Shown here: piece after piece, positions 6,725 to 39,898 of the stretch
How the letters are laid out: the number at the start of each line of letters is the position of its first letter
Numbering within the stretch: position 1 is the first letter of the stretch
DNA from: a virus
Lineage: Duplodnaviria; Caudoviricetes
Direction: 5' to 3' (one strand)
DNA: 61,046 nt
Virus record (IMG/VR): IMGVR_UViG_3300042988_000595
Coordinates: 1-61,046 of that record
Notes under the pieces: model-generated
The model's database searches: none
Seen by the model: only the letters and a program-made list of their open reading frames with translations
Told to the model about the DNA's origin: nothing
Program-made: the position numbers and the translations under genes

Positions 6725-7477
6725 ATGGGACCGCTAGTTAAATTTGCATCTATGCTGGACCCGCGTCTAGGTAAGATATATGAAGACTCGATCGCCTTCG
6801 GTAAGCAGCTACCTAGACATAATCAAGATGGTCCAGGCGATGCTGCACGCCATGCATACGCATCAGCTAAAGTAGCTGACCTGTACGGTCCGACCGCATC
6901 AGACATTCTTGGGTGGTTACACGAAGCAACATCTTTTGGTCAGGACCGCCGTTCTGTTGACATGGACGACTACAACAATCGAGTTGGGCGCGACATGCGA
7001 GGTATGGACGACGCATCGCTGCGAGAGGCTATCATTGGTGCAATCAACGAAGGCGGACTGAAGACTTTACCAAAAGGTATCGATGCTCAAGGGTACGCCG
7101 GAGGCGGACTTGTCCCAATTGGTAACCAAGGTGTTGCTCCCTATGGAGGGCGCTACGGGAGCACGTCTCCAAAAGGTAAAGGATACTTTGGTCTACTGCC
7201 GGCCAAGCATGGACACTCTTCTGAGATATCGAGCGAAGATGAACTCGGGGAGTACCCACTGATGGTACCAACTCTGTCCAAAGAAGAGTTAGAGCTATTG
7301 TTGTCTGGTGAAGTACCAACTGGCGAAATCCAAGCCAAAGCTCAAGCTCACGCTAATATGCGCAGGGATCAAGGCAAGAATACGTTTGCCGAAGAGGAAG
7401 GTCTATACCATCCAAAGCCGACGTATCGCTCAGGCGGCTTAATTCAAATGAAACACTGCAATTGTGGAGGCCGCTAA
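6725..7477 (+). CDS. Two-domain hypothetical protein: DUF6973-like N-domain plus a second phage domain, each followed by a GG motif
   Basis: DAARHAY...HE...MDDYNNRVGR, then YAGGGLV, then KGKGYFG...PLMVPTL...KAQAHA, then YRSGGLI. Confidence 0.6.
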   Translation: MGPLVKFASMLDPRLGKIYEDSIAFGKQLPRHNQDGPGDAARHAYASAKVADLYGPTASDILGWLHEATSFGQDRRSVDMDDYNNRVGRDMRGMDDASLREAIIGAINEGGLKTLPKGIDAQGYAGGGLVPIGNQGVAPYGGRYGSTSPKGKGYFGLLPAKHGHSSEISSEDELGEYPLMVPTLSKEELELLLSGEVPTGEIQAKAQAHANMRRDQGKNTFAEEEGLYHPKPTYRSGGLIQMKHCNCGGR

Positions 7478-9336
7478 TGGCTGATATTTCCCAATCCATC
7501 CTGCGTCGCCTTCGTGACCTGTATGACAACCCAAGAGCCAACTTGGAGATGCTGAATGACAACATCGACAACTTTAATAAGAACCGTGTTGCCGAGATCA
7601 GACCAGAAGGTGCAGGGTACCGCACACTGACGGATGAAGAACAAGTTCGACGGATCACCCGAGGTCTTCAAGACAATATCGGCGGCGGAGGTATGGGTGC
7701 ACTTGGCATCATCAAGGGTAAAGGTGGCAACTGGCTGACGGGTACGGTGGAAGGCGCGTTGGATAGGTTGAAGAAAAAAGGGATGATAAATAATGTAGAG
7801 CGTGCGTATGGGCCTGAATTTGAAGCGGCTGCTGCTGAGAGATTGAGTACGCCAAATCTACATCCTCGTATTGCAGAAGCTATCAAAGAGGGTTTATCTA
7901 ACAATACACGTCACGCTGCTATAAACAACTGGATTGACGGTTCTCTGACAAAGTACGTTAAGCAAGATATGGCCACTGCGGCTGACCCAGTACGATTGAG
8001 GGCTGAGCGTGTCGCTGCTGCCGCTGAAAAACGCAAAGATGGCGCATTGGCGTTGGCTGAGAAAGAGCGGCGCAGAGCGGAAGCTATTCGTCAAGCGGGT
8101 CCAAAACCGGATATGCCGCCTGGGGCTTGGGAAGGAGCTATCCAAAATGCTGAAGTTAAGGCGCGTAATATGGAGGCGGCGGCACATGACACCTACGAGT
8201 TGGACATTGCAAAGGCTTTGCATGTCAATCCGGAAACGATCAACCCTAATATCGCTGACTCAGCAAATCGCATGCGAGCTACGGCCGGTCCTAACGGAAC
8301 CGTTGTTTCCAAATCACCTCTGGCCAGGGCGTGGGAAGACTTCAGCGATAGCGCTGTAGGAACGCAACCTGTCGGAGTTCGGAAGAACTACGAGTTCCAG
8401 ATGGAAGGTAGTCCATGGATGGCCAATTTGCCGGATGACGCATTGGTTCATCATTTCAGTAATCCGACCGACTCACTCGGCTTTCCGCACATGGTGGACG
8501 AGCTAACCAACGCCTTGAACCCCAACTCAGGTCTTCCGCAGCACCTGCAGCTCACACCCGAACAGATGAAGCAGCTCGGTATGGAGAAGGCTGTTGATCA
8601 CGTTGCAAACATCAACGCTTGGCGTGCTGCACAGCAGGTTGAAGCTACTCGAGCGATGAACGCTCATCCTGCAGTTCGTTCAGTACGCGACTACGCGGAC
8701 AATAATCCGAAGGGTCTGCGTTGGGTTGAAATTAAACCCCAAGATGCTGATGCATGGGAAGCTGCAAACTCTCATTTAGGACCAAGAGAATTTGATGAAC
8801 AGGTAGCTAAGTTCCGTCAAGAACGTATGAAGAACTTGGCGGATCAACTTGAGTACGAGGGTAGTACGATGAACCACTGCGTCGGTGGTTACTGTAACGA
8901 CGTTGCGTCAGGTAGGTCACGTATCTTCTCCTTGCGTGATGCCAAGGGTGAGCCTCATGTGACAATTGAAGCCGCTCCTCGCAAGCAAGATTTCAAGTAT
9001 ACCCTAGAAGAGCTGTTCGACTTACCGAAGGTTACAGAAAGGATACCTGACGACATCGTCCAAATCAAAGGTAAGCAGAACCTCAGACCAAAAGACGAGT
9101 ATATTCCGTTCGTTCAAGACTTCATCCGCAATCACCCAGAGAGTGGTCGTTGGGGCAAGATCGGCGACTTGGATAACACAGGGCTTTATCCGCACAAAGG
9201 TGCGTACCTTACAAAGGAAGAGCTTGGCACATTGGTTGACAAAGCCGACCCAGCAGCGCTGGAAACATGGCAACAGTACATTGTCGACGGCGGATCACCT
9301 TTTGCAGAAGGCGGTCTCGTTGAACCACGCTACTAG
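7477..9336 (+). CDS. Large protein with C-terminal PcfJ-like domain and terminal FAEGGLV motif
   Basis: EGSTMNHCVGGY...IFSLRD...PHVTIE...QIKGKQN. Start at 7477 from TAATG coupling and GGAGG RBS. Confidence 0.7.
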   Translation: MADISQSILRRLRDLYDNPRANLEMLNDNIDNFNKNRVAEIRPEGAGYRTLTDEEQVRRITRGLQDNIGGGGMGALGIIKGKGGNWLTGTVEGALDRLKKKGMINNVERAYGPEFEAAAAERLSTPNLHPRIAEAIKEGLSNNTRHAAINNWIDGSLTKYVKQDMATAADPVRLRAERVAAAAEKRKDGALALAEKERRRAEAIRQAGPKPDMPPGAWEGAIQNAEVKARNMEAAAHDTYELDIAKALHVNPETINPNIADSANRMRATAGPNGTVVSKSPLARAWEDFSDSAVGTQPVGVRKNYEFQMEGSPWMANLPDDALVHHFSNPTDSLGFPHMVDELTNALNPNSGLPQHLQLTPEQMKQLGMEKAVDHVANINAWRAAQQVEATRAMNAHPAVRSVRDYADNNPKGLRWVEIKPQDADAWEAANSHLGPREFDEQVAKFRQERMKNLADQLEYEGSTMNHCVGGYCNDVASGRSRIFSLRDAKGEPHVTIEAAPRKQDFKYTLEELFDLPKVTERIPDDIVQIKGKQNLRPKDEYIPFVQDFIRNHPESGRWGKIGDLDNTGLYPHKGAYLTKEELGTLVDKADPAALETWQQYIVDGGSPFAEGGLVEPRY

Positions 9337-9374
9337 CAACTTCGATTTCAACGCGTGGGAACCTGAGTAATTTC

Positions 9375-9383
9375 TGCTACAAT
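9375..9383 (+). promoter_or_regulatory. Extended -10 element TGCTACAAT upstream of portal
   Basis: Identical to the element at 6684. Confidence 0.55.
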
Positions 9384-9445
9384 ACCGTTGACTTTAACCA
9401 AAATTATAGCTAAGACTAGCATCAGTCTTACTTTAGGGCCAAACA

Positions 9446-12196
9446 ATGAGCGATTTGAATCCTTTGTCACTTGGTGATACGCCAGAAGACTATATTGAGA
9501 ACGACGACGGTTCCGTAGAGATTCTCGATATGGAAGAGATTCCGACCGACAACAGCGACTTCTACTCGAATCTGGCGGAGACGATTGCCAAATCGACGCT
9601 TACGGACATCGCTCTTGAATACACGGAGCTGGTTGAGAAGGATAAGCGCTCACGCGACAAACGCGACAAGCAGTATGAAGAGGGTCTGCGTCGTACGGGT
9701 CTGGGTGATGATGCCCCAGGTGGTGCCCAGTTCGAAGGTGCGTCCCGTGTCGTTTCCCCCGTCCTGGCCGAAGGTTGTGTTGACTTTGCCGCACGTGCCA
9801 TCAAAGAGTTGTTCCCTGCTCAGGGTCCGGTTCGCACTTATGTCTTCGGTGACGCTGATGTAGACGCCATCGAGCGAGCTGAGCGTAAGCGCCAATACAT
9901 GAACTGGCAGTTGTCAGTTCAGATGCCTGAATATCGTTCTGAGCTTGAGCAGCTTCTGACTCAGTTGCCGCTGGGTGGTTCTCAGTATCAGAAGTTCTGG
10001 TATGACGAGCGCTGCGGCCGTCCGGTCAGTGAGTTCATCCCGATCGATGAAGTGTATCTTCCGTTCTCAGCATCATCCTTCTATACCGCTCAGCGCGTCA
10101 CCCATCGTCAACTGATTACCAAGTACGAGTTCAACCGGCGCACCAAGTCAGGTCTGTACAAAGAGATTGATCTGTCTGTCGATGAAGAGCTGCCGGATCG
10201 CAGCATGGCAGCGGTGGCCAACGACAAGATTGAAGGGCGTTCTGAGGATGCCTACAACGATGACGGCCTGCGTGCTGTGCTCGAGATTTACACTTGGCTC
10301 GACTTGGACGATGACGCAATCACTGGCGGAGAAGGTGCTCCGTATATCTTGACGATCGATGAATACACTGAGGAAGTTCTCGCTGTTTATCGCAACTGGG
10401 AAGAAGGCGACGAGACGTTCGAAAAGCTTGACTGGATTGTTGAGTGGAAATTCATCCCTTGGCGCGGTGCTTACGCAATCGGCCTCCCACATTTGATCGG
10501 TGGCTTGTCTGCAGCTGCTACGGGAGCTCTCCGTGCCCTGATGGACTCAGCACACATCAACAACGCCCCATCGATGTTGAAGTTGAAGACGGGACGTACG
10601 ATCGGCGGTAACACCTCCGTCAATATCACCGAAGTAACAGAAGTAGAAGCACCTCCAGGCTGTAGCGACATTCGTCAGATCGCGATGCCGATGCCGTTCA
10701 ACCAACCGAGCCCAGTGCTGTTCCAACTGCTAGGCTTCTTGACAGACTCTGCTAAGGGCGTCATTGCAACGGCCGATGAGAAACTGAACAGCGTTGGCGA
10801 CCGTACCCCAGTTGGCACCACGATGGCGCTGATTGAGCAAGGTAGCGTTACGTACTCTGCGATCCATGCGCGTCTGCATGAGAGTCAGAAGAAGGCACTC
10901 CAAATCCTTTCTCGCATCAACCGTCAGTGGTTGAGTGACCATGAAGAGATCGAAGACCTGGGCCGTCTGATTATCAGTAAGGATGACTTCCTGCGCTCAG
11001 GCGACATTATCCCTGTGTCCGACCCCGCAATCTTCTCTGAGTCTCAGCGTTTCGCGCAGTCACAATCCTTGATGCAGATGGCCGCTCAGGATGCACAGAA
11101 CCCAAACATTCATTGGAATCAGATTGAAGTTCGTCGTCGCATGCTCAAACAGATGCGAATCGAGGGTATCGATGAGCTGTTGCCGGCACCTAAGAAGCCG
11201 CTGACGTCCGACCCATTGAGTGAGAGTGACGCTGCGATGCAAGGCGTACCGCTTAAGGCGGCTGATCAGCAGGATCACATGGCTCACATCAATGCTCACC
11301 TGACGTTTATTTCGACCCCTTGGGTCATGCAAAACCCGCTTGTTCCACCGCCTGCGATTAGCGCGGTACTGGGTCACATTAACGAGCACATCCTGATGTA
11401 CCAGAAGCAAGTGGTAGCTCAAATGACGCAACAGGTGATGCAGCAGGCTATGATGATGGGTCAACCGTTGAACCCTGAACAAGCTACCGCGATGGCCATT
11501 GGTCAGTCTACCCAAGTGCTGGGTCAGCAGTTGCAGCCGATCATGCAGCAGATCGCTCAAGTTCAACAGACTGTACAACAGCGCACCCCGCCGGCACCGA
11601 TGCCTCCGGAAGTCCAGGCGTCTATCCAGATCGCTAAGATGGATATTGACCGCAAGGCTCAGTACGACCAAGCTACGCTGCAGAACAAGCAGGCAGAGCT
11701 GCAAGCCAAGCAGCAACTAGATGTCGCCACGTTCCAGGCTGAACAAGCCGCTGAGCAGTTCCGTCAGCAGCAGGAAACCACGCGACAGCAGTTCGAACAG
11801 TTTATGGCTGCTCAACAGCAACAAGCCGATGCTCGCGCTGATGAGATGAAGGGTCAGATTCAACTGCTGATCAATGAGCAGGATAACAAGCAGAAGCAGA
11901 TGACTGAGTTGTTAAAGAACCATGAGGACAACCAGACTAACCTGTTCATCGCTCAGATGAAGGAGCAGCTGGCCAGCTTCCAGCAACAGCCGGCCGTTGA
12001 ACCGAGCGGTCCTGACACCAGTGCGCAACTGCAGCAGGTTCAGACGATGCTCGAGCAATTGAGCAAGCAGCAAACCAACGACTCTTTATCTGCTATAATG
12101 CAGGGGCTTCAAGCAACTGTTGAGCACCTCGGTAAGCCGAAGATGATTGTGCGAGACGGTTCTGGTAAAGCGATCGGTGTACGTGCTGCAGAATGA
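9446..12196 (+). CDS. Portal protein with long Gln-rich C-terminal extension
   Basis: Size, position, and motifs FEGASRVVSPVLAE, KELFP, PVGTTMALIEQG, SAIHARLH, QDHMAHI. Confidence 0.88.
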   Translation: MSDLNPLSLGDTPEDYIENDDGSVEILDMEEIPTDNSDFYSNLAETIAKSTLTDIALEYTELVEKDKRSRDKRDKQYEEGLRRTGLGDDAPGGAQFEGASRVVSPVLAEGCVDFAARAIKELFPAQGPVRTYVFGDADVDAIERAERKRQYMNWQLSVQMPEYRSELEQLLTQLPLGGSQYQKFWYDERCGRPVSEFIPIDEVYLPFSASSFYTAQRVTHRQLITKYEFNRRTKSGLYKEIDLSVDEELPDRSMAAVANDKIEGRSEDAYNDDGLRAVLEIYTWLDLDDDAITGGEGAPYILTIDEYTEEVLAVYRNWEEGDETFEKLDWIVEWKFIPWRGAYAIGLPHLIGGLSAAATGALRALMDSAHINNAPSMLKLKTGRTIGGNTSVNITEVTEVEAPPGCSDIRQIAMPMPFNQPSPVLFQLLGFLTDSAKGVIATADEKLNSVGDRTPVGTTMALIEQGSVTYSAIHARLHESQKKALQILSRINRQWLSDHEEIEDLGRLIISKDDFLRSGDIIPVSDPAIFSESQRFAQSQSLMQMAAQDAQNPNIHWNQIEVRRRMLKQMRIEGIDELLPAPKKPLTSDPLSESDAAMQGVPLKAADQQDHMAHINAHLTFISTPWVMQNPLVPPPAISAVLGHINEHILMYQKQVVAQMTQQVMQQAMMMGQPLNPEQATAMAIGQSTQVLGQQLQPIMQQIAQVQQTVQQRTPPAPMPPEVQASIQIAKMDIDRKAQYDQATLQNKQAELQAKQQLDVATFQAEQAAEQFRQQQETTRQQFEQFMAAQQQQADARADEMKGQIQLLINEQDNKQKQMTELLKNHEDNQTNLFIAQMKEQLASFQQQPAVEPSGPDTSAQLQQVQTMLEQLSKQQTNDSLSAIMQGLQATVEHLGKPKMIVRDGSGKAIGVRAAE

Positions 12197-12651
12197 AGTG
12201 GGACTTTATGACTAGACGAAACATACCGTCGCGCCTAGCGCACATCATGTGGCACTCAGACCTTGAGGCAACGCGCCTCGGTCTGGCTGTTGGTTCGCTG
12301 ATGTGGGCGGTATTCCTCTTCTGGCCAGGTGATCTTTTCACCCCGACGCGCACGACCTACACGGTAATGGCTGAGATCGCCCCCGAGGTGTGCTGGGGCT
12401 ACGCCTTTTTGGTTCAAGGTGTTGTGATGCTTTATTCCCTGCTGTGGGGCTACCGTTCCCAGCTATCCTTTGTTGCTGATGCTCTCTTGGGGTGTTTGTT
12501 ATGGACTACATCAACAGCGGCATGCTTCCTCGCACACTATCAGTCGCTGGCCACGTATCAGCCGCCAGCAGCCATGTCATACGAATTAGTCGGTGCCGTC
12601 CTGAGTTGGTGGTGCCTTGTCCGCTACAGCCTCGACAAGAAAGGCAAATGA
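12193..12651 (+). CDS. Multi-pass membrane protein (holin/antiholin candidate)
   Basis: About four hydrophobic segments, first gene of the lysis cassette. Confidence 0.5.
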   Translation: MKWDFMTRRNIPSRLAHIMWHSDLEATRLGLAVGSLMWAVFLFWPGDLFTPTRTTYTVMAEIAPEVCWGYAFLVQGVVMLYSLLWGYRSQLSFVADALLGCLLWTTSTAACFLAHYQSLATYQPPAAMSYELVGAVLSWWCLVRYSLDKKGK

Positions 12652-13043
12652 TGGAAATCGGTAACACCGAAGCATTGGGAACAATTGCCGGCATTTTGAT
12701 CGCTGGCGCAGTCTGGGTTCGTAAACTGAAGCCAGGGTTTGCCGCCGACGACAAAGTTGCGGCTACCGCCAATGCAGATACCGGAATCATCAAGCGCCTT
12801 GAAGAACAGTGCGACCGTTTAGCAGACCAGAACAAGAAATTGGCGACTCAGGTGAACGAGTTCCAGATTCAAGTGGGCGAACTGTCCATGCAGGTTATCA
12901 CGCTGCGCACTGAGAACAACAAACTATCCATTGAGAACAACGCGCTGCGTGAAGAGAACCTGTCGTTGCGCGAAGAGATCATGGACCTGCGCAAAGAGAT
13001 TCAAGACCTCGGCAAAGCCGTGATGGAGATGGCCAAGAAATGA
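12648..13043 (+). CDS. N-terminal TM plus coiled-coil lysis-cassette protein
   Basis: ALGTIAGILIAGAVWV followed by long heptad repeats. ATGA overlaps on both sides. Confidence 0.55.
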   Translation: MMEIGNTEALGTIAGILIAGAVWVRKLKPGFAADDKVAATANADTGIIKRLEEQCDRLADQNKKLATQVNEFQIQVGELSMQVITLRTENNKLSIENNALREENLSLREEIMDLRKEIQDLGKAVMEMAKK

Positions 13044-13468
13044 TTTCTAAGTATTTCTCCCTCGAGGAGTTGATTGCTTCCGATACGGCTTCGCGCAAGC
13101 ACATCGACAACACACCGACTGCGGAACACTTGCAGAACCTGACCGAGATGGCACAGCAGGCTGATCGTGTCCGTGAGTTCCTCGGCCACCCCATGATCGT
13201 CACGTCCGGCTATCGCGGCCCGAAGCTGAATGCTGCCATTGGCGGCTCCAAGACCTCCAGCCACATGACCGGCCATGCGATGGACTTCCGTTGCCCCGGC
13301 TTTGGAACAGCGAAGGAAGTGTTTGAGGCGCTGAAGAAGTCTGACATCGAGTTCGACCAACTGATTCTGGAGTTCCCAGATTCCCCCGGAGCTTGGGTTC
13401 ACATCGGCTTCGCTCCGGAGTTCCGCCATCAATACCTCGTCTATGACGGCCAATACAGGATCGCCTAA
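13040..13468 (+). CDS. Endolysin, peptidase M15A family
   Basis: SGYR..LNAAIGGSKTSSHMTGHAMDF and WVHIGF zinc-peptidase motifs. Confidence 0.9.
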   Translation: MISKYFSLEELIASDTASRKHIDNTPTAEHLQNLTEMAQQADRVREFLGHPMIVTSGYRGPKLNAAIGGSKTSSHMTGHAMDFRCPGFGTAKEVFEALKKSDIEFDQLILEFPDSPGAWVHIGFAPEFRHQYLVYDGQYRIA

Positions 13469-13995
13469 TGGAACCGATTTCAATCGCACTCGCACTCGCT
13501 GAGTACGCCCCTCAACTGATCAAGTGGGTGACTGGAAATGATAAGGCAGAGAAAGTCGCAGCAGTCGCAGTGGATGTGGCTAAAAAGGTTACAGGCGCAA
13601 CGACCGGAGACGGCGCTCTTGAACTCATCAAGGCCGATCCAAAGCTCGCAGCCGAGTTTGCCGACAAAGTTGCCGAACGCGAAGCCGACCTAGAGAAGGC
13701 TTACCTTGCCGATATGGACTCCGCTCGTCGTATGCAGATCGCTGCACTGGCCCAGTCTGACGTGTTCTCCAAGCGCTTCGTCTATTACTTCGCCTGCGCG
13801 TGGTCGGCATTCGCCATGCTGTACTTCTCGTTCGTAACGTTCGGCCATGTTTCCCAGTCTGGGCAGCGTATGGCTGACACGATCCTCGGTGTGCTGATCG
13901 GCACGGTGATCACGGGCTTCTTCAACTTCTTCTACGGCTCATCTGCACGCAGCCGCGAGAAGGACGACACCATCAAACAACTGAGCAAGCAATGA
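13468..13995 (+). CDS. Putative holin
   Basis: Two C-terminal TM segments ending FFYGSS, downstream of the endolysin. Confidence 0.65.
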   Translation: MEPISIALALAEYAPQLIKWVTGNDKAEKVAAVAVDVAKKVTGATTGDGALELIKADPKLAAEFADKVAEREADLEKAYLADMDSARRMQIAALAQSDVFSKRFVYYFACAWSAFAMLYFSFVTFGHVSQSGQRMADTILGVLIGTVITGFFNFFYGSSARSREKDDTIKQLSKQ

Positions 13996-14342
13996 AGAAA
14001 CTCGCGCTCCTCCTACTCCTGCCGACGCTGGCATTTGCACAACTGGTCGATCCGCGCTACTGCGGCGCTGAAGTCAAGCGCGAAGCTGACGGCACGATCA
14101 CGCGCAGCCGACTGGTGCTGAAGCATTACCAAATCCTCCACCCATGTCCATCGACGGGACTAAAGACCGGCGCATGTCCCGGCTGGGCACTGGATCACGT
14201 TATTCCGCTGGCCTGTGGTGGTTGCGACGAGATTGGAAACCTTCAGTGGCTAAAGAACACCATCAAGTCGTGCGCTGGCACGGAATGTAAAGACCGTTGG
14301 GAACGCAAGATCAACTGCGAACCCGTTCAAATTGTAAAGTAA
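13992..14342 (+). CDS. HNH-family protein with N-terminal signal peptide
   Basis: MKKLALLLLLPTLAFA leader, then HPCPSTG...CPGWALDHVIPLACGGCDEIGNLQWL. Confidence 0.75.
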   Translation: MKKLALLLLLPTLAFAQLVDPRYCGAEVKREADGTITRSRLVLKHYQILHPCPSTGLKTGACPGWALDHVIPLACGGCDEIGNLQWLKNTIKSCAGTECKDRWERKINCEPVQIVK

Positions 14343-14351
14343 GGAGCCAGC

Positions 14352-14558
14352 ATGAACGTAGCACAAGGCAATCTCGTCCTGATCGGACTGCACACCAAGA
14401 CGCCGCAAGTGTTCTGGAATGGGCAACTGGTCGAAGGAATCCGAGCCATCAAGGTGAATAACGACAGCCTGATTTCCAAGGTGCAACTGACACTTGGCGC
14501 AACTGGCGCACTGGCTGAAATGGCCGCTGCCGGTATCGAAATCAAAGTAGGAGCCTGA
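14352..14558 (+). CDS. Hypothetical protein
   Basis: AAGGAG RBS, 68 aa. Confidence 0.7.
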   Translation: MNVAQGNLVLIGLHTKTPQVFWNGQLVEGIRAIKVNNDSLISKVQLTLGATGALAEMAAAGIEIKVGA

Positions 14559-14559
14559 T

Positions 14560-14763
14560 ATGAGTGATTTCCTTTTCATCGTTCCTGCAGGCTGGACGCA
14601 GATTTCCCAAGACATCATCGACCAGATCGGCGCCAATCAGATTCTTGGCTGGGTGCAGACAAGCGACTACGGCACGTTGGGTATTGCTCTGCGAGAAGCG
14701 GGTGGCCCTGAGTCTATCTCTGAGGCTGTCTTCTTCAACAGTGAGATTCTGGCAGTCCGATAA
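14560..14763 (+). CDS. Hypothetical protein
   Basis: AGGAG RBS, 67 aa. Confidence 0.7.
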   Translation: MSDFLFIVPAGWTQISQDIIDQIGANQILGWVQTSDYGTLGIALREAGGPESISEAVFFNSEILAVR

Positions 14764-17355
14764 ATGACAGCCTTTGTCGCCAATAACGGTGCGGTCAATT
14801 ACTTTGACGGCTACAGCGGTGGATCAGTCAATGCCACGCTGGATACCTACACGATCTCAGCCGGTTCGACGCTGACCGTTCGCACCGATAGCTACTGCTG
14901 CCCGAACCATTCGACGGCCTTTGGCTCGCTCGATACGGTGACGTTCAGCGGGCAGGGCGGCACGCTTAATTTTGATCCGACTTACGTTCGTGTGATTTCC
15001 TACACGGGCGGCTCTGGTAATTCCCCAGCTTACGGCACGACGATCTCCCAAGGTGGCGTGTCCGGTGTGTTCTTGGGTTGCTGGACAAACTGGCTGTCAG
15101 AGCCGATTGCTGCCGGTGCTGCGATTGGTGCAACGGGCTTTATGAAGATTGGCGGCGTCACGGGCGGAAACTTCGCTGCCGGCGCACTGACGGGTATCAC
15201 GGCAACTTGCTCTGGCGCGGATGTTCAAGGCTGGATGGAAGTTCGCGGCGATACCACGGCAACCATCACGGTGCCGCGTATTGGCAAGGTGACATCCACC
15301 GAAGCATGGTTTGAGATCGGCACAACGAACGGCACACGCGGCCAAGTAATCCCATGCCCGACATGCGCAACCAATGCGGGTGTTTTCCCTGCGGTGTGGA
15401 TTGAAACGGCTGTCGGTTCTGGCGTGTATGAGCCGTATGTCAGCGTAGGCTCTCAGGTTGCTTTGGCAACGACAAGAACGACTGCCGAAATGAAAGTCTT
15501 TTGGCAGACGACGGGCGGCATTCGTATCGGTAACGACGGCACAAACGGCGTTGGTTATTTGCCGGTAACTGGCCTCAAGGTTCGCATTCCCGCTGTCATC
15601 CTGACCAACAGCACGCGGACGGTATCGGGTACCGGCCCTCGCGTTCTACCGAATGCCACGATTGCTACACGGCAAGAAATGATTACCACGGGTGCAGGTT
15701 ACTTCGACCTGCGCGGTTGCGTGATTCAGTGGTACATGAACCTGACCCAGCCGTTCTACGTCAAGTACAAGTCCTGCGCGATCAACGACGCAATGATCTT
15801 GTCGGAAGTGGCATCCCCGCTCGATGTAAGTGACTGTGTGGTTGCTCCGACCCAAGCGCAGATCAACGTGGCATTGCAGGTGGTTTCTTGTTTCGCTGGC
15901 GGCACGATCTCAAATAGCCGGTTCTGGTCGTTCTCCCTCGCTGCGTCTGGCCGGTACGTCACAACGCTGAATTACGTCACTGGCGTCACGTTCTCAGGCA
16001 ACACTTACGGCTCATTTACGCTGCGAGCGAATGCCACGACGGGCGTTCATAACAGCACGCAAGCGGTGAATTGCACATTCACTGACGACAAGTTGATTGG
16101 TGGTCGCGGTCTGTTCATCGGTGCACAAAGCTGCACGTTCAACAATCTGTCTTACTACGACCACACGATCACGACGACCACGACATCGACCAACCCGATG
16201 GCCGGCCTTGAATTCACCACGGGCGGCAATGGGAATACGGTCAATGGCTTCTCGCTACCGCTGCCGAATAATGGACCATACAACGCGCTCGTTACGCTGA
16301 CAGCCTGCTACAACACGCTGGTCAAGAATATCGGCACAAGCACGGTTGCTCCGCTGGCAATGACCAGCACCGTCACTGGTCTGGGCGTCAATGCGACAGG
16401 TAACAACGACGGCATCACCATCAAGCGCATGTTCCTGTCAGGTACGCGCACCGGCCCCTACGTCTTCGTCAATTCGGACACGAACATCCTGATCGAAAAC
16501 TGCATGGGCGACTATGCCGATACGACGGTCATGGCTGGGCTGAATGCCATCGAGAAGAATGTCGGGATCACTTCCGCCACTACGGGACAGGTGTCGGTCT
16601 ATGGATCGCACTGGAAGACGCGCTTTACCTCAACGACGGCTGGTTTCACTGAGATTACTTGCAATGAGCCGACTGCAGCGAGTGCCGCTCAGTGCGCAGC
16701 GACAGGCGGAACGCCGCAGTTCAACTCTTCTGGCTCGGTGCTGCTGACCAAAGCAGGCGACCAAGTAACGTGGGAAATGCCGTTCTTCGCGCTGGGCTAC
16801 ACGGCTTTCACAAACACGAACTGCACGGTCACCGGAACGAACGTCACTTACTCATCTGGTTCATCTTGGGGCAACCACACGCTTGAGTACCAGATCGACA
16901 CCGGCTCGGGCTACAACGGCACATGGCTGGCGCTGAACAACACCAACCTGATCACGCACACGATCACTGCGACGACGGGGTTCAAGCTGAAGATTCGCGC
17001 CACGACGCTTACCGTCAATGCTGGCAACGTCCTGACGAACATTCGCATACCGATGACGACGACTTCGGCGGCGCAGCAGACAAACCTGTATCCGCTGTCT
17101 GTGAATACCGTCATCGTTGATGGACTGGTTACAGGCTCTCGCGTCAAGGCCACAAAGGTTTCAGACGGTACTGTTCTGGCGAATCAAGCAGAAGTCGGCG
17201 GCACGGTGACTTTCACAACGGACTACACAGGTGCGGTAGCCATCGAGGCGCGTAAGGCTAGCGGATCGCCTTACTACATCCCGTGGAATACGCAGATCAC
17301 AACCATTTCAGGTTCAACCGTGTCGGCAACGGCACTTCAGCAATTAGACGAGTAA
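14764..17355 (+). CDS. Large Thr/Gly/Asn-rich virion appendage protein with probable beta-helix
   Basis: Composition and repeated N-x-x-F/I strand pattern in the centre. C-terminal module shared with 17366. Confidence 0.6.
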   Translation: MTAFVANNGAVNYFDGYSGGSVNATLDTYTISAGSTLTVRTDSYCCPNHSTAFGSLDTVTFSGQGGTLNFDPTYVRVISYTGGSGNSPAYGTTISQGGVSGVFLGCWTNWLSEPIAAGAAIGATGFMKIGGVTGGNFAAGALTGITATCSGADVQGWMEVRGDTTATITVPRIGKVTSTEAWFEIGTTNGTRGQVIPCPTCATNAGVFPAVWIETAVGSGVYEPYVSVGSQVALATTRTTAEMKVFWQTTGGIRIGNDGTNGVGYLPVTGLKVRIPAVILTNSTRTVSGTGPRVLPNATIATRQEMITTGAGYFDLRGCVIQWYMNLTQPFYVKYKSCAINDAMILSEVASPLDVSDCVVAPTQAQINVALQVVSCFAGGTISNSRFWSFSLAASGRYVTTLNYVTGVTFSGNTYGSFTLRANATTGVHNSTQAVNCTFTDDKLIGGRGLFIGAQSCTFNNLSYYDHTITTTTTSTNPMAGLEFTTGGNGNTVNGFSLPLPNNGPYNALVTLTACYNTLVKNIGTSTVAPLAMTSTVTGLGVNATGNNDGITIKRMFLSGTRTGPYVFVNSDTNILIENCMGDYADTTVMAGLNAIEKNVGITSATTGQVSVYGSHWKTRFTSTTAGFTEITCNEPTAASAAQCAATGGTPQFNSSGSVLLTKAGDQVTWEMPFFALGYTAFTNTNCTVTGTNVTYSSGSSWGNHTLEYQIDTGSGYNGTWLALNNTNLITHTITATTGFKLKIRATTLTVNAGNVLTNIRIPMTTTSAAQQTNLYPLSVNTVIVDGLVTGSRVKATKVSDGTVLANQAEVGGTVTFTTDYTGAVAIEARKASGSPYYIPWNTQITTISGSTVSATALQQLDE

Positions 17356-17365
17356 GGAGCCACAC

Positions 17366-18814: not shown

Positions 18815-18823
18815 CATTAGAAT

Positions 18824-19567
18824 ATGTCCATGCTTAGCTCATCCGGTATCTATGTGATAACAAATCTAGTGAACGGTAAGCGCTATTACGGTAGCGCTGC
18901 CAAGTTCAGCACTAGGTTTTCTGTTCACAAGTATTACTTAAACAAAGGGACTAGCCGATCTACTAAGCTGCAAAACGCTTGGAATAAATACGGTGAGTCA
19001 TCGTTTGAATTCACTCCAATGTTTGTATGCGCCAAGAGCGACTTGCTTATGTATGAGCAGCGTGTTCTCGATGCGTTTGATGCAGTTAATACTGGGTACA
19101 ACATATGCTCAACGGCTGGTAGTGCGCTTGGAGTTAAGCGTCGTCCTGAGTCGATTGCAAAAACGCGAGCTGCACACATAGGTAGGAAGTACCCTGAAGA
19201 TGTACGCAAGAGAATGGGTGCTGCTAATCTTGGGAAGAAACTGTCTGAAGATCATGTCGCAAAAGTTGTTGCGCGAACGAAGGGCTTGAAACGTGATGAT
19301 GAGTTTCGTCGCAAGCTATCAGAGCGCAGCAAAGGTAAGCGGCACTCTGATGAAACAAAGGAAAAGCAGCGTCAAGCGGCGTTAAACAGAGACTCAGCTA
19401 GAGGCGAAAAAAATGTGAACGCAAAAATGAATCCTGATCGCGTAAGACACATTCGTGATTTGCATTCAAAAGGAGTCGCATTGACAGAAATCGGTCGAGA
19501 GGTCGGTCTACATCCGTCAACGGTTGCTGATATTGCATACCGCAAAACTTGGAGGCATGTGGTATGA
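18824..19567 (+). CDS. GIY-YIG homing endonuclease with NUMOD3-like repeats and C-terminal HTH
   Basis: SGIYVITNLVNGKRYYGSA, LQNAWNKYG, GYN, HSDETKEK. Confidence 0.9.
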   Translation: MSMLSSSGIYVITNLVNGKRYYGSAAKFSTRFSVHKYYLNKGTSRSTKLQNAWNKYGESSFEFTPMFVCAKSDLLMYEQRVLDAFDAVNTGYNICSTAGSALGVKRRPESIAKTRAAHIGRKYPEDVRKRMGAANLGKKLSEDHVAKVVARTKGLKRDDEFRRKLSERSKGKRHSDETKEKQRQAALNRDSARGEKNVNAKMNPDRVRHIRDLHSKGVALTEIGREVGLHPSTVADIAYRKTWRHVV

Positions 19568-20488: not shown

Positions 20489-20499
20489 ACAGGTGATGT

Positions 20500-20679
20500 A
20501 TGGGCAAACTGGCACAACAACTTGGTGGCCAAAGTCAAGTTAAGGTATTCGCCAAAGGCGGATTGGTGGAGAAGAATGAGCCGAAGCGCGAAGAGCGTCG
20601 TGAAGCCAAGCTGTCTCCGAAGGCTCGTGCCAAGGTGGAACGGGTGGAAAAACACAAATGTGGCGGAAAGGTTAAGTAA
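20500..20679 (+). CDS. 59 aa basic protein carrying FAKGGLV, not in ORF track
   Basis: Translated by hand: MGKLAQQLGGQSQVKVFAKGGLVEKNEPKREERREAKLSPKARAKVERVEKHKCGGKVK. AGGTG RBS, fills the gap exactly. Confidence 0.75.
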   Translation: MGKLAQQLGGQSQVKVFAKGGLVEKNEPKREERREAKLSPKARAKVERVEKHKCGGKVK

Positions 20680-20681
20680 GC

Positions 20682-21040: not shown

Positions 21041-21045
21041 GATTT

Positions 21046-21101
21046 AGCCGTCCCACTCTCCGACGGGGGAGGAAGTTTGCCTCAGACTTCACGGGACGGT
21101 T
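21046..21101 (+). other. Predicted three-way-junction RNA structure upstream of groES
   Basis: P1 agccgtccc/gggacggtt, P2 ctctcc-gacg-ggggag, P3 gaagttt-gcctc-agacttc. Confidence 0.55.
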
Positions 21102-21128
21102 TTCCAGAGGCTACATTAGGAGAATCGT

Positions 21129-28941: not shown

Positions 28942-29916
28942 ATGGCGACTTCTGGAACAATCGGTTCAACTACCATCAAGACCTCGAACCTGTTGGAAAA
29001 GGCTGTTCGTCGCTGTGGCTTGCTCCCTGCTACGCTGACCCCTGAGTCTGTAGATACTGCCACCGAGAGCTTGTTTATGCTCTTGATGAGCTTGTCCAAC
29101 CGAGGTTTGAACCTTTGGTGTGTAGACAAGAAGCTCATGGCGTTGGAAGTGGCCAAGGCGACCTATCAGTTGCCGATCGGCACCCAAGTGGTCCTCAACC
29201 TGCTTCATGCCACGCCGACCCTCGTTACGGGTACGGACACTTCTGATGCAAATAACTACACCACCACTCTGACGACAGCCTCTCCCGTGGTCCGCTTCGG
29301 TGTAAAGTTTAGCGTTTCGCCCACTTCGTTCACCTTTGAATCGTCCGCCGACGGCGTTACTTGGACCATTGCTGAGACGTTCACAGAAGTAGCTGCTTCG
29401 GGCACCCTCGGTTGGTACGACGTTGACCCTTCCGTCACTGCGGCTTACTTCCGCGTGCATAGTGCGACCGGTATTACCGTGACCCAGTTCACGCTGGTGA
29501 CAGAAGTCAAAGAAGTCATGGTGGCCAAGTTCAACCGCGACGACTATGCCAACCAACCGAACAAGACGCAACAGTCCAACACAGTCACCAACTATTACTT
29601 CGAGAAGCTGATCACCCCTCAGCTAACCGTGTGGCCAGTGCCGTCCGATGCTACCCGTCACTTGGTGCTGTTCCGCTACCGCCAGATTCAAGACGTCGGT
29701 ACGCTGACTCAAGAGTTGGAAATCCCTGCCCGTTGGTATGAAGCAATCTGCTGGCATTTGGCACTGCGCCTAGCATTCGAGCTGCCTGGGGTTGACCCCG
29801 CACGCCGTCAAGAGGTTAAGGGTATGGCTGACGCTATGACAATTGAAGTTGAGCGTGACGAAAGTGATGATGCACCTATTTATTACAGCCCTGCGATAGG
29901 TGTATATACCCGATGA
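28942..29916 (+). CDS. Head-tail adaptor-like virion protein
   Basis: MATSGT..., SNRGLNLW, NRDDYANQPNK, VWPVP, EIPARWYEAI motifs. Confidence 0.6.
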   Translation: MATSGTIGSTTIKTSNLLEKAVRRCGLLPATLTPESVDTATESLFMLLMSLSNRGLNLWCVDKKLMALEVAKATYQLPIGTQVVLNLLHATPTLVTGTDTSDANNYTTTLTTASPVVRFGVKFSVSPTSFTFESSADGVTWTIAETFTEVAASGTLGWYDVDPSVTAAYFRVHSATGITVTQFTLVTEVKEVMVAKFNRDDYANQPNKTQQSNTVTNYYFEKLITPQLTVWPVPSDATRHLVLFRYRQIQDVGTLTQELEIPARWYEAICWHLALRLAFELPGVDPARRQEVKGMADAMTIEVERDESDDAPIYYSPAIGVYTR

Positions 29917-30596
29917 ACCACGTGTATATTGATTTTAAGCCTAACGGTACCCCATTTTATGTGGGGATCGGTTCTGCACGTAGAGTCAAAGTTGCCCGTA
30001 GAAACCGTCATCACTCCAATGTTTGCAAGAAATACAAAGACTGGTACAGGGTGGTTGTGGAGTCCACAGAAGACTATGATCTTTGCAAAGAGTTTGAAAT
30101 ATTTCTTATTTCAGAAATAGGTCGTAAAGATTTACACGATGGTCCATTGGTGAATTACACCGACGGAGGTGACGGCGTTAAAGGTTTGGTGTTCTCTGAA
30201 GAGTCTCGTGCGAAGCTGTCCAAAGCTCGTCTCGGCAATACACACCTGCTTGGTTATGTCCCTACACAGGAGACTCGTCGCAAAATCAGCAGAGCGAACA
30301 TGGGTCGCAAGCATACGCCTGAGGCCAAGGTGAACATGAGTAATGCCCAACGCGGAGAAAATCACCCGATGTATGGTAAAACTCATAAAGATTCATCCAA
30401 GTTGAAGACTTCGCAAAGTACCAAAGGTAAGGTGTGGATTACTAATGGAGAAACAGAGTCTCTTATCCGTTTAGTGTGTGGTGTACCACTTGGATGGGAA
30501 CTTGGTAGAATTAATGGTAAGTCGAGAAAGGCTGACCGCTCTCCGGAAGCAACAGCACGTCGATCCGAGGCTGCAAAGCGGGGTGCTAAAAAATGA
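29913..30596 (+). CDS. GIY-YIG-like homing endonuclease with NUMOD3 repeats
   Basis: VYIDFKPNGTPFYVGIGS, LVNYTDGGDG, SEESRAKLS, GENHPMYGKTH. Confidence 0.85.
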   Translation: MNHVYIDFKPNGTPFYVGIGSARRVKVARRNRHHSNVCKKYKDWYRVVVESTEDYDLCKEFEIFLISEIGRKDLHDGPLVNYTDGGDGVKGLVFSEESRAKLSKARLGNTHLLGYVPTQETRRKISRANMGRKHTPEAKVNMSNAQRGENHPMYGKTHKDSSKLKTSQSTKGKVWITNGETESLIRLVCGVPLGWELGRINGKSRKADRSPEATARRSEAAKRGAKK

Positions 30597-30820: not shown

Positions 30821-31444
30821 ATGGCTGAAGCACTTACGTATGACAGCTTAGTTCAAGATATCAAGGATTATTCTGAGCGATCGGACGAACCGTTTTTGAA
30901 TCAGATTCCGCGTCTGATCATGATGGCTGAAAATCGCATTGCTTCCGAGTCTAAGCCGTTCGGCTTTGTTCGCACCGTGACCGGTACGCTTAACGGGAAC
31001 ACGCTTGAGAAACCGACCCGTTGGCGCAAGACGAAAAGTTTTAGCCTCCTCGACGGTACCACGAGACGTTATCTTTACAGCCGAGAATATGAGTATTGCC
31101 GTAGTTTTTGGCCAAATGCGGCGCTGACGGCACTGCCTAAGTATTATGCAGATTATGACTACGAGCACTTCTTTCTGGCAGCAACTCCGGACCAAGCGTA
31201 CCCGTTTGAACTACAATATTACGAACGGCCGATTCCGCTCAGTGCTGAGAACCAGACAAATTGGACTACCCAATACGCACCACAGTTGTTACTCTACGCA
31301 ACCATGATGGAAGCGATGCCGTTCTTGAAGACTTCAGAGCGTATTCCTGAGTTTCAAGGTTTGTACGATCGCGCCATGGCTGCGATTACGAAAGAAGATG
31401 AATCTCGCGTTATGGATAGCGCAGTTGTAAGGAGTCAGCCTTAA
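30821..31444 (+). CDS. Tail adaptor/tubular-like protein
   Basis: LTYDSLVQDIKDYSER, MAENRI, PKYYA, TPDQAY, APQLLLYA. Confidence 0.65.
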   Translation: MAEALTYDSLVQDIKDYSERSDEPFLNQIPRLIMMAENRIASESKPFGFVRTVTGTLNGNTLEKPTRWRKTKSFSLLDGTTRRYLYSREYEYCRSFWPNAALTALPKYYADYDYEHFFLAATPDQAYPFELQYYERPIPLSAENQTNWTTQYAPQLLLYATMMEAMPFLKTSERIPEFQGLYDRAMAAITKEDESRVMDSAVVRSQP

Positions 31445-36914: not shown

Positions 36915-36917
36915 TTG

Positions 36918-38621: not shown

Positions 38622-38632
38622 AGGATTGAATT

Positions 38633-39898
38633 ATGGGTTGGGAAGATAACAGCTACGACTGGAATGTACCGGACACCTCTTACTACCCGTCTGGGGATGG
38701 TCTGGACTTTACCAATTATTACGATGCCGGCCAGTTCGACCCCAGTTCTTTCCAGCTGGATATGCCGTCGTTCGATTGGAATGACTCAGACATTCTGTCA
38801 TCCCTTGGTATCTCCTCGTATGATGTTCCGACGCCAGAGTCTCTGATGTTCCAATCTCAGTCCCCGATGGGTCTGGCTGACCAACTGGCGATCGAACAGT
38901 ACCAATCTCAAATTCCTCCTGACGTCGCGTCTATCTTGACTGCGAAGGGTATTGACCCTGCCACCAGTCGGATCAGCGAGAATGGCTACATTTCCACTCC
39001 GCGAGGTGAGTTCACTCCGGAAGAACTTCAGTCCATGAACGTTGGCGGTGTCAAGTCGGAAGACGAGCAGCTCGCTCCGATCTCTATTGATAGTCAACCA
39101 TCGGCCTCAAACATTTACTCTTCTGGCATCTATGGTGACATGAAGCTACCGGAAGGCGAAGTCGTTAACCCGCTCTGGAAGCAATCTGCCACTGAACAAG
39201 GTTTGATTGACAATATCAGCGCTCGCGACGATCTGTCCACGCCCGAAAAGATTAAGATGTTGCAGGACATGAAGCTCCTTGGTGGCTTCGTAGAGCCGGA
39301 CGCCTACAACAAAGAATCAGCCGTTGCATCCCCCGATGAATACCGTGCGGACAACCGTAGCGTTGGTCAAAAGTTGCTTCAAGGTGCTCTGAACATGATG
39401 AAACCTGGCACTAATGGCGCAAAGACATACCGTCGTAACGCCGACGGCTCGGTGACCGAAACGCAGGCACGAGAGTCTTCCATCCTTGAAAAGGCGCTAC
39501 AAGCGTACGGTATTCTCGCGGGTGGCGGAGGTAAGGCTCCGGATGCTATCGGCGATCGTGGTGCTCAGGCTTGGTCTGTCGGTCGTAAAGCTGGATCAGG
39601 TCGCAAGATGGCTACGGGTGGCGCGGTGGGTGGCTCCGGCACCAAAAAGGGAGCACTTGGCCTTCTGCAAGGTGCTTCGACCGGTCAATCCGACAAGGTG
39701 GATGCCAAATTGTCTCACGGTGAATATGTAGTGGATGCGGACGTCGTGTCTGCTCTGGGTGACGGTAACACTGAAGCTGGTGCTGATAAGCTTGATCAAA
39801 TGCGTCAAGCCGTTCGCTCTCACAAACGTTCCGCACCTTCTGGTAAAATTCCTCCTGCGGCTAAGTCGCCGCTGCAGTACATGAAAGGGGCCGCATAA
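38633..39898 (+). CDS. Putative internal virion protein with MATGG...GQSD...LSHGEYV module
   Basis: C-terminal module resembles the one near tape-measure protein C-termini. Confidence 0.6.
   Translation: MGWEDNSYDWNVPDTSYYPSGDGLDFTNYYDAGQFDPSSFQLDMPSFDWNDSDILSSLGISSYDVPTPESLMFQSQSPMGLADQLAIEQYQSQIPPDVASILTAKGIDPATSRISENGYISTPRGEFTPEELQSMNVGGVKSEDEQLAPISIDSQPSASNIYSSGIYGDMKLPEGEVVNPLWKQSATEQGLIDNISARDDLSTPEKIKMLQDMKLLGGFVEPDAYNKESAVASPDEYRADNRSVGQKLLQGALNMMKPGTNGAKTYRRNADGSVTETQARESSILEKALQAYGILAGGGGKAPDAIGDRGAQAWSVGRKAGSGRKMATGGAVGGSGTKKGALGLLQGASTGQSDKVDAKLSHGEYVVDADVVSALGDGNTEAGADKLDQMRQAVRSHKRSAPSGKIPPAAKSPLQYMKGAA

What the first reader, a model, noticed from the sequence alone, without database searches (positions are those of the whole stretch)
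6725..39898. Shared [FYM]-[AR]-x-G-G-[LA]-[VI] tag on unrelated late proteins: candidate cargo-tagging or processing system
Seen: the heptapeptide occurs as YAGGGLV (7094-7114, between the two domains of the 6725 protein), YRSGGLI (7424-7444, near its C-terminus), FAEGGLV (9301-9321, four residues before the stop of the PcfJ-like protein), FAKGGLV (20548-20568, in a 59 aa basic ORF missed by the track) and MATGGAV (39608-39628, opening the GQSD...LSHGEYV module of an internal virion protein). The four proteins share nothing else, and the codons differ, so conservation is at the protein level. Known (from memory): FATGG/YATGG followed by GE[FY]V occurs in the C-terminal region of tape-measure proteins such as lambda gpH, which is processed and ejected. 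Inference: in this phage without a tape measure, the motif is a portable signal that targets swappable effector domains for head packaging or ejection, or marks cleavage sites that release them.
Basis: partly seen in the sequence, partly recalled or inferred. Interest (0 to 1): 0.82.

Follow-up and report, generated by a model that had tools for sequence, protein, structure and literature searches.

The report
Shared glycine tag on phage cargo
A seven-residue motif recurs at the loose ends and joints of unrelated proteins that this phage and its relatives carry inside the virion, and it is probably a shared handle for loading or trimming them, though no experiment has shown which.

Summary
All five heptapeptides are at the stated coordinates. 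Counts within the window alone are not decisive, because the pattern was defined from the data. Relatives settle it. In 105 related viral loci, [FY]A.GG[LIVAM]V occurs 48 times against 0.27 expected. It lies in the last 60 residues of the gene just before portal in 30 of 44 loci, against 1 of 419 ORFs outside the terL-portal interval. The carriers are varied polyvalent-type cargo: DUF6973, PcfJ, SLT and LPD23 domains. The 59-aa ORF is a real, conserved gene. MATGGAV is the conserved start of an unannotated C-terminal module found in at least 6,516 protein clusters. The module matches tape-measure PHROGs. Lambda gpH has FATGG, GEFV and YATGG at 733-784, in the unresolved region near its unmapped cleavage. 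AlphaFold puts the motifs in disordered segments. Function is unproven. My reading is a portable loading tag (0.40), against a maturation cleavage site (0.30). No protease and no receptor were found.

The parts
6725..7477 (+). 250-aa two-part cargo protein. A DUF6973 helical domain (residues 1-120) is followed by a disordered stretch, a second conserved region and a disordered tail.
   Evidence: Pfam DUF6973 at E 2.1e-6. AlphaFold pLDDT is 74-98 for residues 1-120 and below 50 for 123-183 and 222-250. Homologues.
7094..7114 (+). Motif copy 1, YAGGGLV (residues 124-130), immediately after the DUF6973 domain.
   Evidence: The same position (residue 124) holds the motif in 5 of 5 homologues that start with DUF6973 (P0002-P0006), and residue 126 in P0010.
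7424..7474 (+). Motif copy 2, YRSGGLI, plus a C-terminal Cys tail QMKHCNCGGR.
   Evidence: Tails of the form GGL[IV]QMKE..C.CG[RK]* are seen in P0002-P0005 and KECSCH(G)* in L016, L018, L020 and L021.
7477..9336 (+). PcfJ-like protein (619 aa from the ATG at 7477), encoded directly upstream of portal.
   Evidence: Pfam PcfJ at E 1.2e-8. 31% identical to the PcfJ-like protein of DSL-LC04.
9301..9321 (+). Motif copy 3, FAEGGLV, 4 residues before the stop.
   Evidence: The equivalent genes of relatives carry the motif in their last 60 residues in 30 of 44 loci.
20500..20679 (+). 59-aa basic protein, a real gene. It has a conserved leader MGKLAQQLGGQSQVKV, motif copy 4 (FAKGGLV, 20548-20568), a variable basic middle, and HKCGGKV at 20653-20673.
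   Evidence: An AGGTGA Shine-Dalgarno sequence lies 5 nt upstream. Syntenic homologues occur in related loci. 34 clusters match at E <= 0.01, including the window's own. Of the 33 others, 31 keep the N-terminal motif and 29 a Cys/Gly-Gly C-terminus.
38633..39898 (+). 421-aa presumed internal virion (ejection) protein with a variable N-terminal part and a conserved C-terminal module.
   Evidence: Synteny with Caulobacter phage GB2A gp065c, which lies among virion structural and lytic tail genes. Neighbour 35145-36914 matches a virion structural PHROG.
39590..39895 (+). Conserved C-terminal module (residues 320-421): motif copy 5 MATGGAV (39608-39628), GQSD, GEYV core (39719-39730), DADVVSALGDGN, HKRSAP...PLQYMKG.
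   Evidence: 6,516 cluster representatives at E <= 1e-3 and 2,872 at E <= 1e-10; the module is C-terminal in all 150 listed. Tape-measure PHROGs 5448 and 6090 match at about E 2e-5. 135 of 150 have A.GG within 90 aa upstream of the core, against a shuffle mean of 29. No Pfam family.
5032..6678 (+). Large terminase, the left border of the cargo locus.
   Evidence: Weak Terminase_6C hit. 114 relatives in viral contigs. tblastn matches annotated terL genes.
9446..12196 (+). Portal protein, the right border of the cargo locus.
   Evidence: PHROG 1216 portal at E 7e-20.

Best explanation
The heptapeptide is the core of a widespread, so far unannotated short linear motif. Its consensus is [G/K]-[Y/F]-A-x-G-G-x-V, and it lies in flexible tails and linkers. 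It marks proteins that travel inside the virion: polyvalent-type cargo encoded between terminase and portal, a small basic protein encoded among the head genes, and a tape-measure-like ejection protein. I think it most likely works as a portable recognition peptide. A shared assembly partner (portal, scaffold or another internal protein) would bind it and so take whatever domain carries it into the particle. The tag may or may not be trimmed afterwards. Shown: the motif is conserved, portable, enriched at termini and at the terL-portal locus, predicted to be disordered, and belongs to the tape-measure-type module. Inferred: binding, packaging, and the presence of the carriers in virions.
For: (1) In 105 related loci the motif occurs 48 times against 0.27 expected, and 36 of the 48 lie in the last tenth of the protein. 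(2) It lies in the last 60 residues of the last ORF before portal in 30 of 44 loci (36 of 44 with a relaxed pattern), against 1 of 419 (4 of 419) ORFs outside the terL-portal interval. These loci are related to one another, so the counts are not independent events. (3) A, G, G and V are invariant across 25 aligned tails. Position -1 is Y, F or W in 102 of 140 distinct contexts. (4) The carriers differ: DUF6973, PcfJ, SLT and LPD23 domains, with a weak ART-PolyVal hit. (5) Position is free. DSL-LC04 has three copies at the N-terminus of its PcfJ-like protein and copies on two small basic proteins after portal. (6) Stand-alone proteins keep the motif only 4-15 residues from their stop, for example when a fused protein (L007) is split into two genes (L020, L021). 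There it cannot be needed to separate domains. (7) Tandem copies 9-12 residues apart, and small proteins with a copy at each end, would suit binding by avidity. (8) Both copies in the 6725 protein, and the copy in the 38633 module, fall in segments with pLDDT below 50, next to a confident fold in the first case.
Against: No binding partner was identified. No virion proteomics exist for this phage or any motif-bearing relative that I could find. Large polyvalent proteins carry the motif repeatedly between domains, at intervals of about 300-400 residues, which looks more like polyprotein punctuation. In tape measures the same motif lies in the tail, not the head, so a single head-loading receptor cannot explain every context. 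Caulobacter phage GB2A has the module but no tagged cargo, and roseophage CRP-902 has no cargo locus and no motif, so the system is not universal.
Confidence: 0.4

Rival explanations
1. The motif is a maturation cleavage site. It punctuates polyvalent proteins, small core-protein precursors, ejection proteins and tape measures, and a phage or host protease cuts at or beside it to release the pieces. The lambda gpH to gpH* cut would be one case.
For: The motif recurs between domains of large cargo proteins, often as doublets (L029, L050). Gene fusion and fission boundaries coincide with it. The context is disordered. For T5 pb2, mass spectrometry placed the cut after R1127, directly before AEGGMM (passages of PMC10038345; sequence). 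An older mapping put it after V1148 +/- 1, inside the following HGTEV|V (quoted in passages of PMC11937520). Both sites lie in the motif-like stretch. For lambda gpH, passages of PMC12617516 say that a fragment of about 14 kDa is removed, that the site and the protease are unknown, and that residues of about 690-817 are unresolved. A cut at F733|A734 would give 79.8 kDa plus a 120-aa fragment of 12.5 kDa. From recall, not tested here: Gly-Gly sites are used by adenovirus, ASFV and coronavirus PLpro proteases.
Against: No protease was found. The only peptidase hit is the M15 endolysin at 13040-13468 (28 window proteins in Pfam, 40 in PHROGs). None turned up in 10 cargo proteins of relatives. 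The motif is absent from the capsid, scaffold-position and portal proteins of the window. Copies 4-15 residues from a stop would release almost nothing. hhalign does not link T5 pb2 to the module, and the R1127 site is disputed because it coincides with a trypsin site. The lambda link rests on a mass estimate only.
Confidence: 0.3
2. The motif is a structural element with no addressing role. It would be a strand-turn unit, possibly metal-binding together with the nearby Cys/His and Asp-rich segments, through which ejected proteins self-associate or refold. One example would be building the trans-envelope conduit after ejection.
For: The module has invariant Gly and Asp residues (GQ.D, DAD, ALGDG) but no invariant Ser, His or Cys, so it looks like a binding module and not an enzyme. 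It does not fold as a monomer (mean pLDDT 63), as expected if it folds on assembly. C.CGG lies between motif and core in 4 of 150 module proteins and recurs in cargo tails. Tape measures and ejection proteins share the need to pass through the tail and reassemble (passages of PMC12617516).
Against: This reading does not explain why the motif concentrates on the gene next to portal or on enzyme-like cargo domains. No oligomer was modelled here.
Confidence: 0.2
3. The recurrence is chance in glycine-rich linkers, or simple inheritance of one homologous tail.
For: The post-hoc control shows that patterns of 5 fixed residues in 7, shared by three proteins, are common in shuffled proteomes of this size. 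Many terL-portal proteins of relatives are homologous to one another: 42 of 90 fall in one single-linkage family.
Against: Enrichment in relatives is about 180-fold. A, G, G and V are invariant across tails attached to different domains. The motif appears in 27 single-linkage families even after the motif and the 40 residues after it are masked. It occupies different positions in different proteins. In module proteins, 135 of 150 have it against 29 expected from local shuffles.
Confidence: 0.03

Closest known systems
T4 capsid targeting sequence of the internal proteins (recalled, not tested here)
   Same: A short terminal peptide shared by unrelated small basic or enzyme proteins that are packaged in the head and ejected. 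Here the small basic protein has a conserved 17-residue leader followed by the motif.
   Different: The T4 signal is N-terminal, binds the scaffolding core and is removed by the prohead protease at L/I-x-E. Here the sequence is different, the position is free, and neither a prohead protease nor a receptor is known.
Lambda gpH C-terminal region (FATGG-GEFV-YATGG) and the tape-measure cleavage of lambda and T5
   Same: The same A.GG motif followed by a G[ED][FY]V core. hhalign aligns the GEYV...ALGDGN stretch of the window module to the GEFV...RIGVGN stretch of lambda, but weakly (E 0.0058). Tape-measure PHROGs and the Douge tape measure match the module.
   Different: The window protein has 421 aa, lies in a phage without a tape measure, and has only one flanking motif. 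The region has no Pfam family and no solved structure in lambda, T5 or Douge. Its role there is itself unknown.
Polyvalent proteins of phages and conjugative elements (Iyer et al. 2017, PMC5512222)
   Same: Multi-domain cargo encoded in phages with portal-terminase packaging and predicted to be delivered with the DNA. Relatives carry LPD23, SLT and a weak ART-PolyVal hit.
   Different: That paper proposes processing by zincin-like peptidases. Its main text has no occurrence of 'glycine' or 'linker' (passages only, supplements not seen), and no such peptidase is present here.
MuF / SPP1 gp7 portal-associated head proteins with variable toxin domains (mentioned in PMC5512222; otherwise recalled)
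   Same: Swappable effector domains attached to a conserved element and encoded beside portal.
   Different: There the conserved element is a folded MuF domain encoded after portal. Here it is a 7-residue motif, with or without a short helix or Cys tail, encoded before portal.
Gly-Gly maturation sites of adenovirus, ASFV and PLpro-type proteases (recalled; a PLpro abstract was seen in the listing)
   Same: A hydrophobic residue, then x-G-G, in the linkers of internal virion precursors, including small basic core peptides.
   Different: No clan CE or CA protease was found in this phage. The one mapped cut beside a motif-like site (T5 R1127|AEGG) lies before the Ala, not after Gly-Gly.

Membership tests
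Capsid-targeting / packaging signal (T4 CTS type) | The same short peptide on unrelated proteins of the virion interior | tested here: met
   The motif is on proteins with DUF6973, PcfJ, SLT or LPD23 domains, on small basic proteins and on the module protein. That these proteins are inside virions is inferred, not shown.
Capsid-targeting / packaging signal (T4 CTS type) | The peptide is sufficient to load a foreign protein into the head | not testable with these tools
   Needs a reporter fusion experiment.
Capsid-targeting / packaging signal (T4 CTS type) | A defined receptor (scaffold core or portal) | tested here: inconclusive
   None was identified.
Viral Gly-Gly maturation cleavage site | A cognate protease encoded by the virus | tested here: not met
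   Only an M15 endolysin was found among 28 window proteins scanned in Pfam and 40 in PHROGs. None was found in 10 cargo proteins of relatives. A host or undetected protease is not excluded.
Viral Gly-Gly maturation cleavage site | Cleavage demonstrated at the motif | not testable with these tools
   The only indirect evidence is the disputed T5 site before AEGGMM and the lambda fragment mass.
Tape-measure-type C-terminal module (A.GG ... G[ED][FY]V ...) | An A.GG motif 16-84 residues upstream of a G[ED][FY]V core, with GQ.D and DAD..ALGDG | tested here: met
   The 38633 protein has all of these elements. 135 of 150 family members have A.GG upstream of the core.
Tape-measure-type C-terminal module (A.GG ... 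G[ED][FY]V ...) | Sequence match to tape-measure families | tested here: met
   PHROGs 5448, 6090 and 17300 match at E 2e-5 to 6e-3, over the module for the first two. The Douge tape measure matches at E 0.053 with two stretches. The match to lambda is weak.
Tape measure protein proper | A long protein beside tail tube and chaperone genes that sets tail length | tested here: not met
   The protein has 421 aa. No tube, sheath or chaperone hits were found, and an SU10-type adaptor is present.
Polyvalent proteins (Iyer 2017) | Two or more effector-type domains in one polypeptide of a phage with portal-terminase packaging | tested here: inconclusive
   The window proteins have one Pfam domain each. 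Relatives combine DUF6973 with PcfJ, or DUF6973 with LPD23.

The most novel reading that the evidence does not exclude
One conserved recognition event acts on [Y/F]-A-x-G-G-x-V in both tails and heads. Under this reading, tape measures (including the still unmapped lambda gpH to gpH* cut, predicted at or next to F733-A734), podovirus ejection proteins, polyvalent cargo and small basic core peptides are all processed at this motif inside the assembling particle by a protease or self-cleaving chemistry not yet identified. That would be a phage counterpart of adenovirus core-protein maturation.
Probability: 0.22. Interest if true: 0.85.

Novelty: new variant of a known kind. Interest (0 to 1): 0.62.

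Why it matters
If the motif is a loading tag, it explains how phages of this group swap effector domains at the terminase-portal locus and still get them into the particle. It would also offer a seven-residue handle for packaging chosen proteins into phage heads. If it is a cleavage site, it gives a specific, testable prediction for the lambda gpH cut, whose position and catalyst a 2025 structural paper still calls unknown. It would also bear on the disputed T5 site. Either way it gives a first annotation for a module present in at least 6,516 protein clusters with no Pfam family, and for a family of small basic head-region proteins that gene callers tend to miss.

Tried and rejected
- Complex prediction: portal of L054 (826 aa, 21-row alignment) with the 80-aa cargo tail (25-row alignment) gave no answer. 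The score was 0.00 against a mark of 0.32, and the controls were not run. This is evidence neither for nor against binding.
- Motif and LS.GE[FY]V core as variants of one unit: not supported. hhalign aligns the tails and the small-protein family motif-to-motif with the module profile (E 0.019 and 0.067), not to the core.
- Second half of the 6725 protein as a divergent copy of the module (suggested by a BLASTP hit at E 0.004): not supported. hhalign gives E 0.42, with only the motif aligned.
- T5 pb2 as a homologue of the module: hhalign does not align that region. T5 stays an analogy.
- Fold of the module: the monomer model is poor (mean pLDDT 63), so no fold search was run on it.
- Foldseek of the 6725 model against the PDB: nothing at E <= 1e-3. 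The only lead is the T6SS effector BteO, 9uu0_A, at probability 0.77 and E 2.2.
- ESM Atlas: only unnamed viral clusters. A crAss cargo-protein row at 0.82 is at chance level.
- Searches that found nothing: megablast of 5000-25000 against phages, tblastn of the 6725 protein, and a viral-contig scan with the 38633 protein.
- Literature: string searches for the motif returned only primers and an unrelated medical abbreviation. A search on ejection proteins, Gly-Gly and polyprotein found nothing relevant. PMC10386132 has none of five terms searched. Supplements were closed, so motif tables there could have been missed.


Full report
WHAT THE WINDOW IS
The window is a whole 61,046-bp phage contig.
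- A plus-strand late block runs from about 4.4 to 45 kb. It holds terminase (5032-6678), the two cargo genes, portal (9446-12196; PHROG 1216), an M15 endolysin, a Cpn10-like gene, a capsid gene (23684-24589), an SU10-type adaptor (30821-31444), a fibre gene, and a run of large virion proteins.
- A minus-strand block holds replication genes: primase/helicase, helicase, two exonucleases, dCTP deaminase and DNA polymerase.
- No tape measure, tube or sheath was detected. The closest cultured terminase is that of roseophages CRP-901/902, at 45% identity. There is no nucleotide-level relative among deposited phages.

THE OBSERVATION
The pattern was derived from the data, so I ran a post-hoc control. 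Some pattern of 5 fixed residues in 7, shared by three or more proteins, occurs in every one of 100 shuffled proteomes (mean 24; 37 in the real set). The window alone therefore cannot carry the claim.

EVIDENCE FROM RELATIVES
A terminase scan of viral contigs gave 114 relatives, of which 80 loci were kept. A scan with the 21548 protein gave 25 more.
- Across 1,023 non-identical ORF products (277,046 aa) of these loci, [FY]A.GG[LIVAM]V occurs 48 times against a shuffle mean of 0.27 (maximum 4 in 200 shuffles). All 48 are on the coding strand, and 36 lie in the last tenth of the protein.
- 45 loci hold both terminase and portal, and 44 of them have an ORF in between. The last ORF before portal carries the motif in its final 60 residues in 30 of 44 (36 of 44 with a relaxed pattern). 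The figure is 1 (4) of 419 for complete ORFs outside the interval. The eight exceptions are L014, L029, L032-L034, L062, L067 and L074.
- The loci are related to one another, so these are not independent events.
- The carriers differ. Pfam finds PcfJ, DUF6973, SLT and LPD23, plus a weak ART-PolyVal hit, in 10 cargo proteins tested; 4 of the 10 had no hit. Masking the motif and the 40 residues after it still leaves 27 single-linkage families among 90 carriers.
- In 25 aligned tails, A, G, G and V are invariant. In 140 distinct contexts, position -1 is Y 68, F 29, K 12 and W 5, and position -2 is mostly G or K.
- What follows the motif falls into types: a YDP.EID.IV helix, a ..KEC.C(H)G(R) tail, or NKLWNKYHGR.
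- In the metagenome-assembled phage DSL-LC04, three copies sit at the N-terminus of the PcfJ-like protein, and two small basic proteins after portal carry one each.
- CRP-902 has neither a cargo locus nor the motif.

EACH CARRIER IN THE WINDOW
6725 protein. 9 of 15 homologues carry [FYM][AR].GG.[VI]. All five that begin with DUF6973 have it at residue 124, as the window protein does. AlphaFold gives a confident helical domain for residues 1-120 and pLDDT below 50 for 123-183 and 222-250, so both copies start disordered segments.

59-aa ORF. It has a Shine-Dalgarno sequence and syntenic homologues. 34 clusters match in the large protein collection, including the window's own. The leader MGKLAQQLGGQSQVKV plus the motif is nearly invariant, the basic middle varies, and the end is usually KCGGKVKK. 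Of the 33 other clusters, 31 keep the N-terminal motif and 29 the Cys/Gly-Gly end.

38633 protein. Its last 102 residues match 6,516 cluster representatives at E <= 1e-3 (2,872 at E <= 1e-10). The module is C-terminal in all 150 listed, on proteins of 90 to 1,837 aa. 135 of the 150 have A.GG within 90 residues upstream of the G[ED][FY]V core, against 29 in local shuffles. 99 have [FYWML]A.GG, against 4.9. MATGGAV is therefore the conserved opening of a module, not a free tag. The module hits tape-measure PHROGs, the Douge tape measure twice and Caulobacter phage GB2A gp065c. It has no Pfam family, and the Atlas finds only unnamed viral clusters. As a monomer it does not fold: mean pLDDT is 63 and the motif falls in a stretch with pLDDT near 50 or below. 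Its invariant residues are Gly, Asp, Arg, Lys, Pro and Tyr, with no catalytic set.

THE TAPE-MEASURE LINK
- Lambda gpH has FATGGFT at 733, GEFV at 754 and YATGGYV at 778 of 853 residues, outside its two Pfam domains.
- Passages of PMC12617516 say that a fragment of about 14 kDa is cut off, that the site and the catalyst are unknown, that residues of about 690-817 are unresolved, and that 818-849 bind gpI.
- A cut at F733|A734 would give 79.8 kDa plus 12.5 kDa.
- In T5 pb2, passages of PMC10038345 place the cut after R1127, which the sequence shows is directly before AEGGMM. Passages of PMC11937520 dispute this, since R1127 is a trypsin site, and quote an older mapping after V1148 +/- 1. That position lies in the following HGTEV|V.
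- hhalign aligns the window module to the lambda GEFV stretch only weakly (E 0.0058), and does not align it to T5.
- In Douge only residues 1,658-1,699 of the tape measure are resolved, so no structure of the module exists.

HOW IT MOST LIKELY WORKS
Two readings fit.

For a docking or loading tag:
- The motif concentrates on the gene next to portal.
- It persists a few residues from the stop of stand-alone proteins, even when a fused protein is split into two genes (L007 against L020/L021).
- It occurs in tandem, or at both ends of small proteins.
- Its position in the protein is free.

For a cleavage site:
- Large polyvalent proteins are punctuated by it between domains.
- Gene fusion boundaries coincide with it.
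- The lambda and T5 data point to this region.

Against cleavage, no protease was found. Against a single head receptor, the motif also occurs in tail proteins. The two readings can combine, as in a targeting peptide that is later removed. I give the loading tag 0.40, pure cleavage 0.30, a structural or self-association element 0.20 and chance 0.03. The remainder is unassigned.

COMPARISON WITH WHAT IS KNOWN
The cargo proteins fit the polyvalent-protein concept of PMC5512222. Its main text has no occurrence of 'glycine' or 'linker' and proposes zincin-type processing (passages only). I found no description of the motif in print. Supplements were closed and subscription journals are not held, so this is not proof of absence.

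The kind of element (a portable targeting or processing peptide) is known. This sequence, its breadth, and its bridging of head cargo and tape measures appear new.

Noticed in passing
window 7445-7474 and 20653-20676; L016, L018, L020, L021; P0002-P0005: Motif-bearing tails often end in a His/Cys cluster followed by Gly-Gly and a basic residue (KHCNCGGR*, KHKCGGKVK*, KECSCHG*, KGGKC*). A C.CGG element also lies between motif and core in 4 of 150 module proteins. This could be a metal-binding half-site or a disulphide.
   Followed up: partly
window 53033-53761 (-): An early-region exonuclease (PHROG 69) ends in EYAKGGYRAK*. This is a partial motif copy outside the late genes and lacks the final Val.
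   Followed up: no
window 18824-19567, 24657-25367, 29913-30596 (also 13992-14342, weak): Three homing-endonuclease or HNH/endonuclease VII-like genes are inserted within the late structural operon.
   Followed up: no
window 21129-21536: A Cpn10/GroES-like gene (Pfam E 1.4e-8) sits between the small basic ORFs and the 323-aa acidic protein upstream of the capsid gene. DSL-LC04 has the same arrangement.
   Followed up: no
window 6725-7084: The DUF6973 domain models as a confident six-helix bundle. Its only structural lead is the Bacteroides T6SS effector BteO (9uu0_A, probability 0.77, E 2.2). When the domain follows another domain in homologues, its N-terminus (MGPLVKFAS) lines up with the GGLV of a preceding motif.
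   Followed up: partly
window 20682-20867 and 20864-21040: Two further small ORFs (61 and 58 aa) lie directly after the 59-aa gene. They were not examined.
   Followed up: no
L106 10865-11056 (DSL-LC04): A 64-aa protein deposited as 'type III secretion system' lies in the head-gene block. The name looks like an annotation artefact.
   Followed up: no
L111 25270-25398 (GB2A gp091c): A 42-aa basic protein after portal ends in KGKC* but has no motif. It may be a counterpart of the small basic proteins in a phage that lacks tagged cargo.
   Followed up: no
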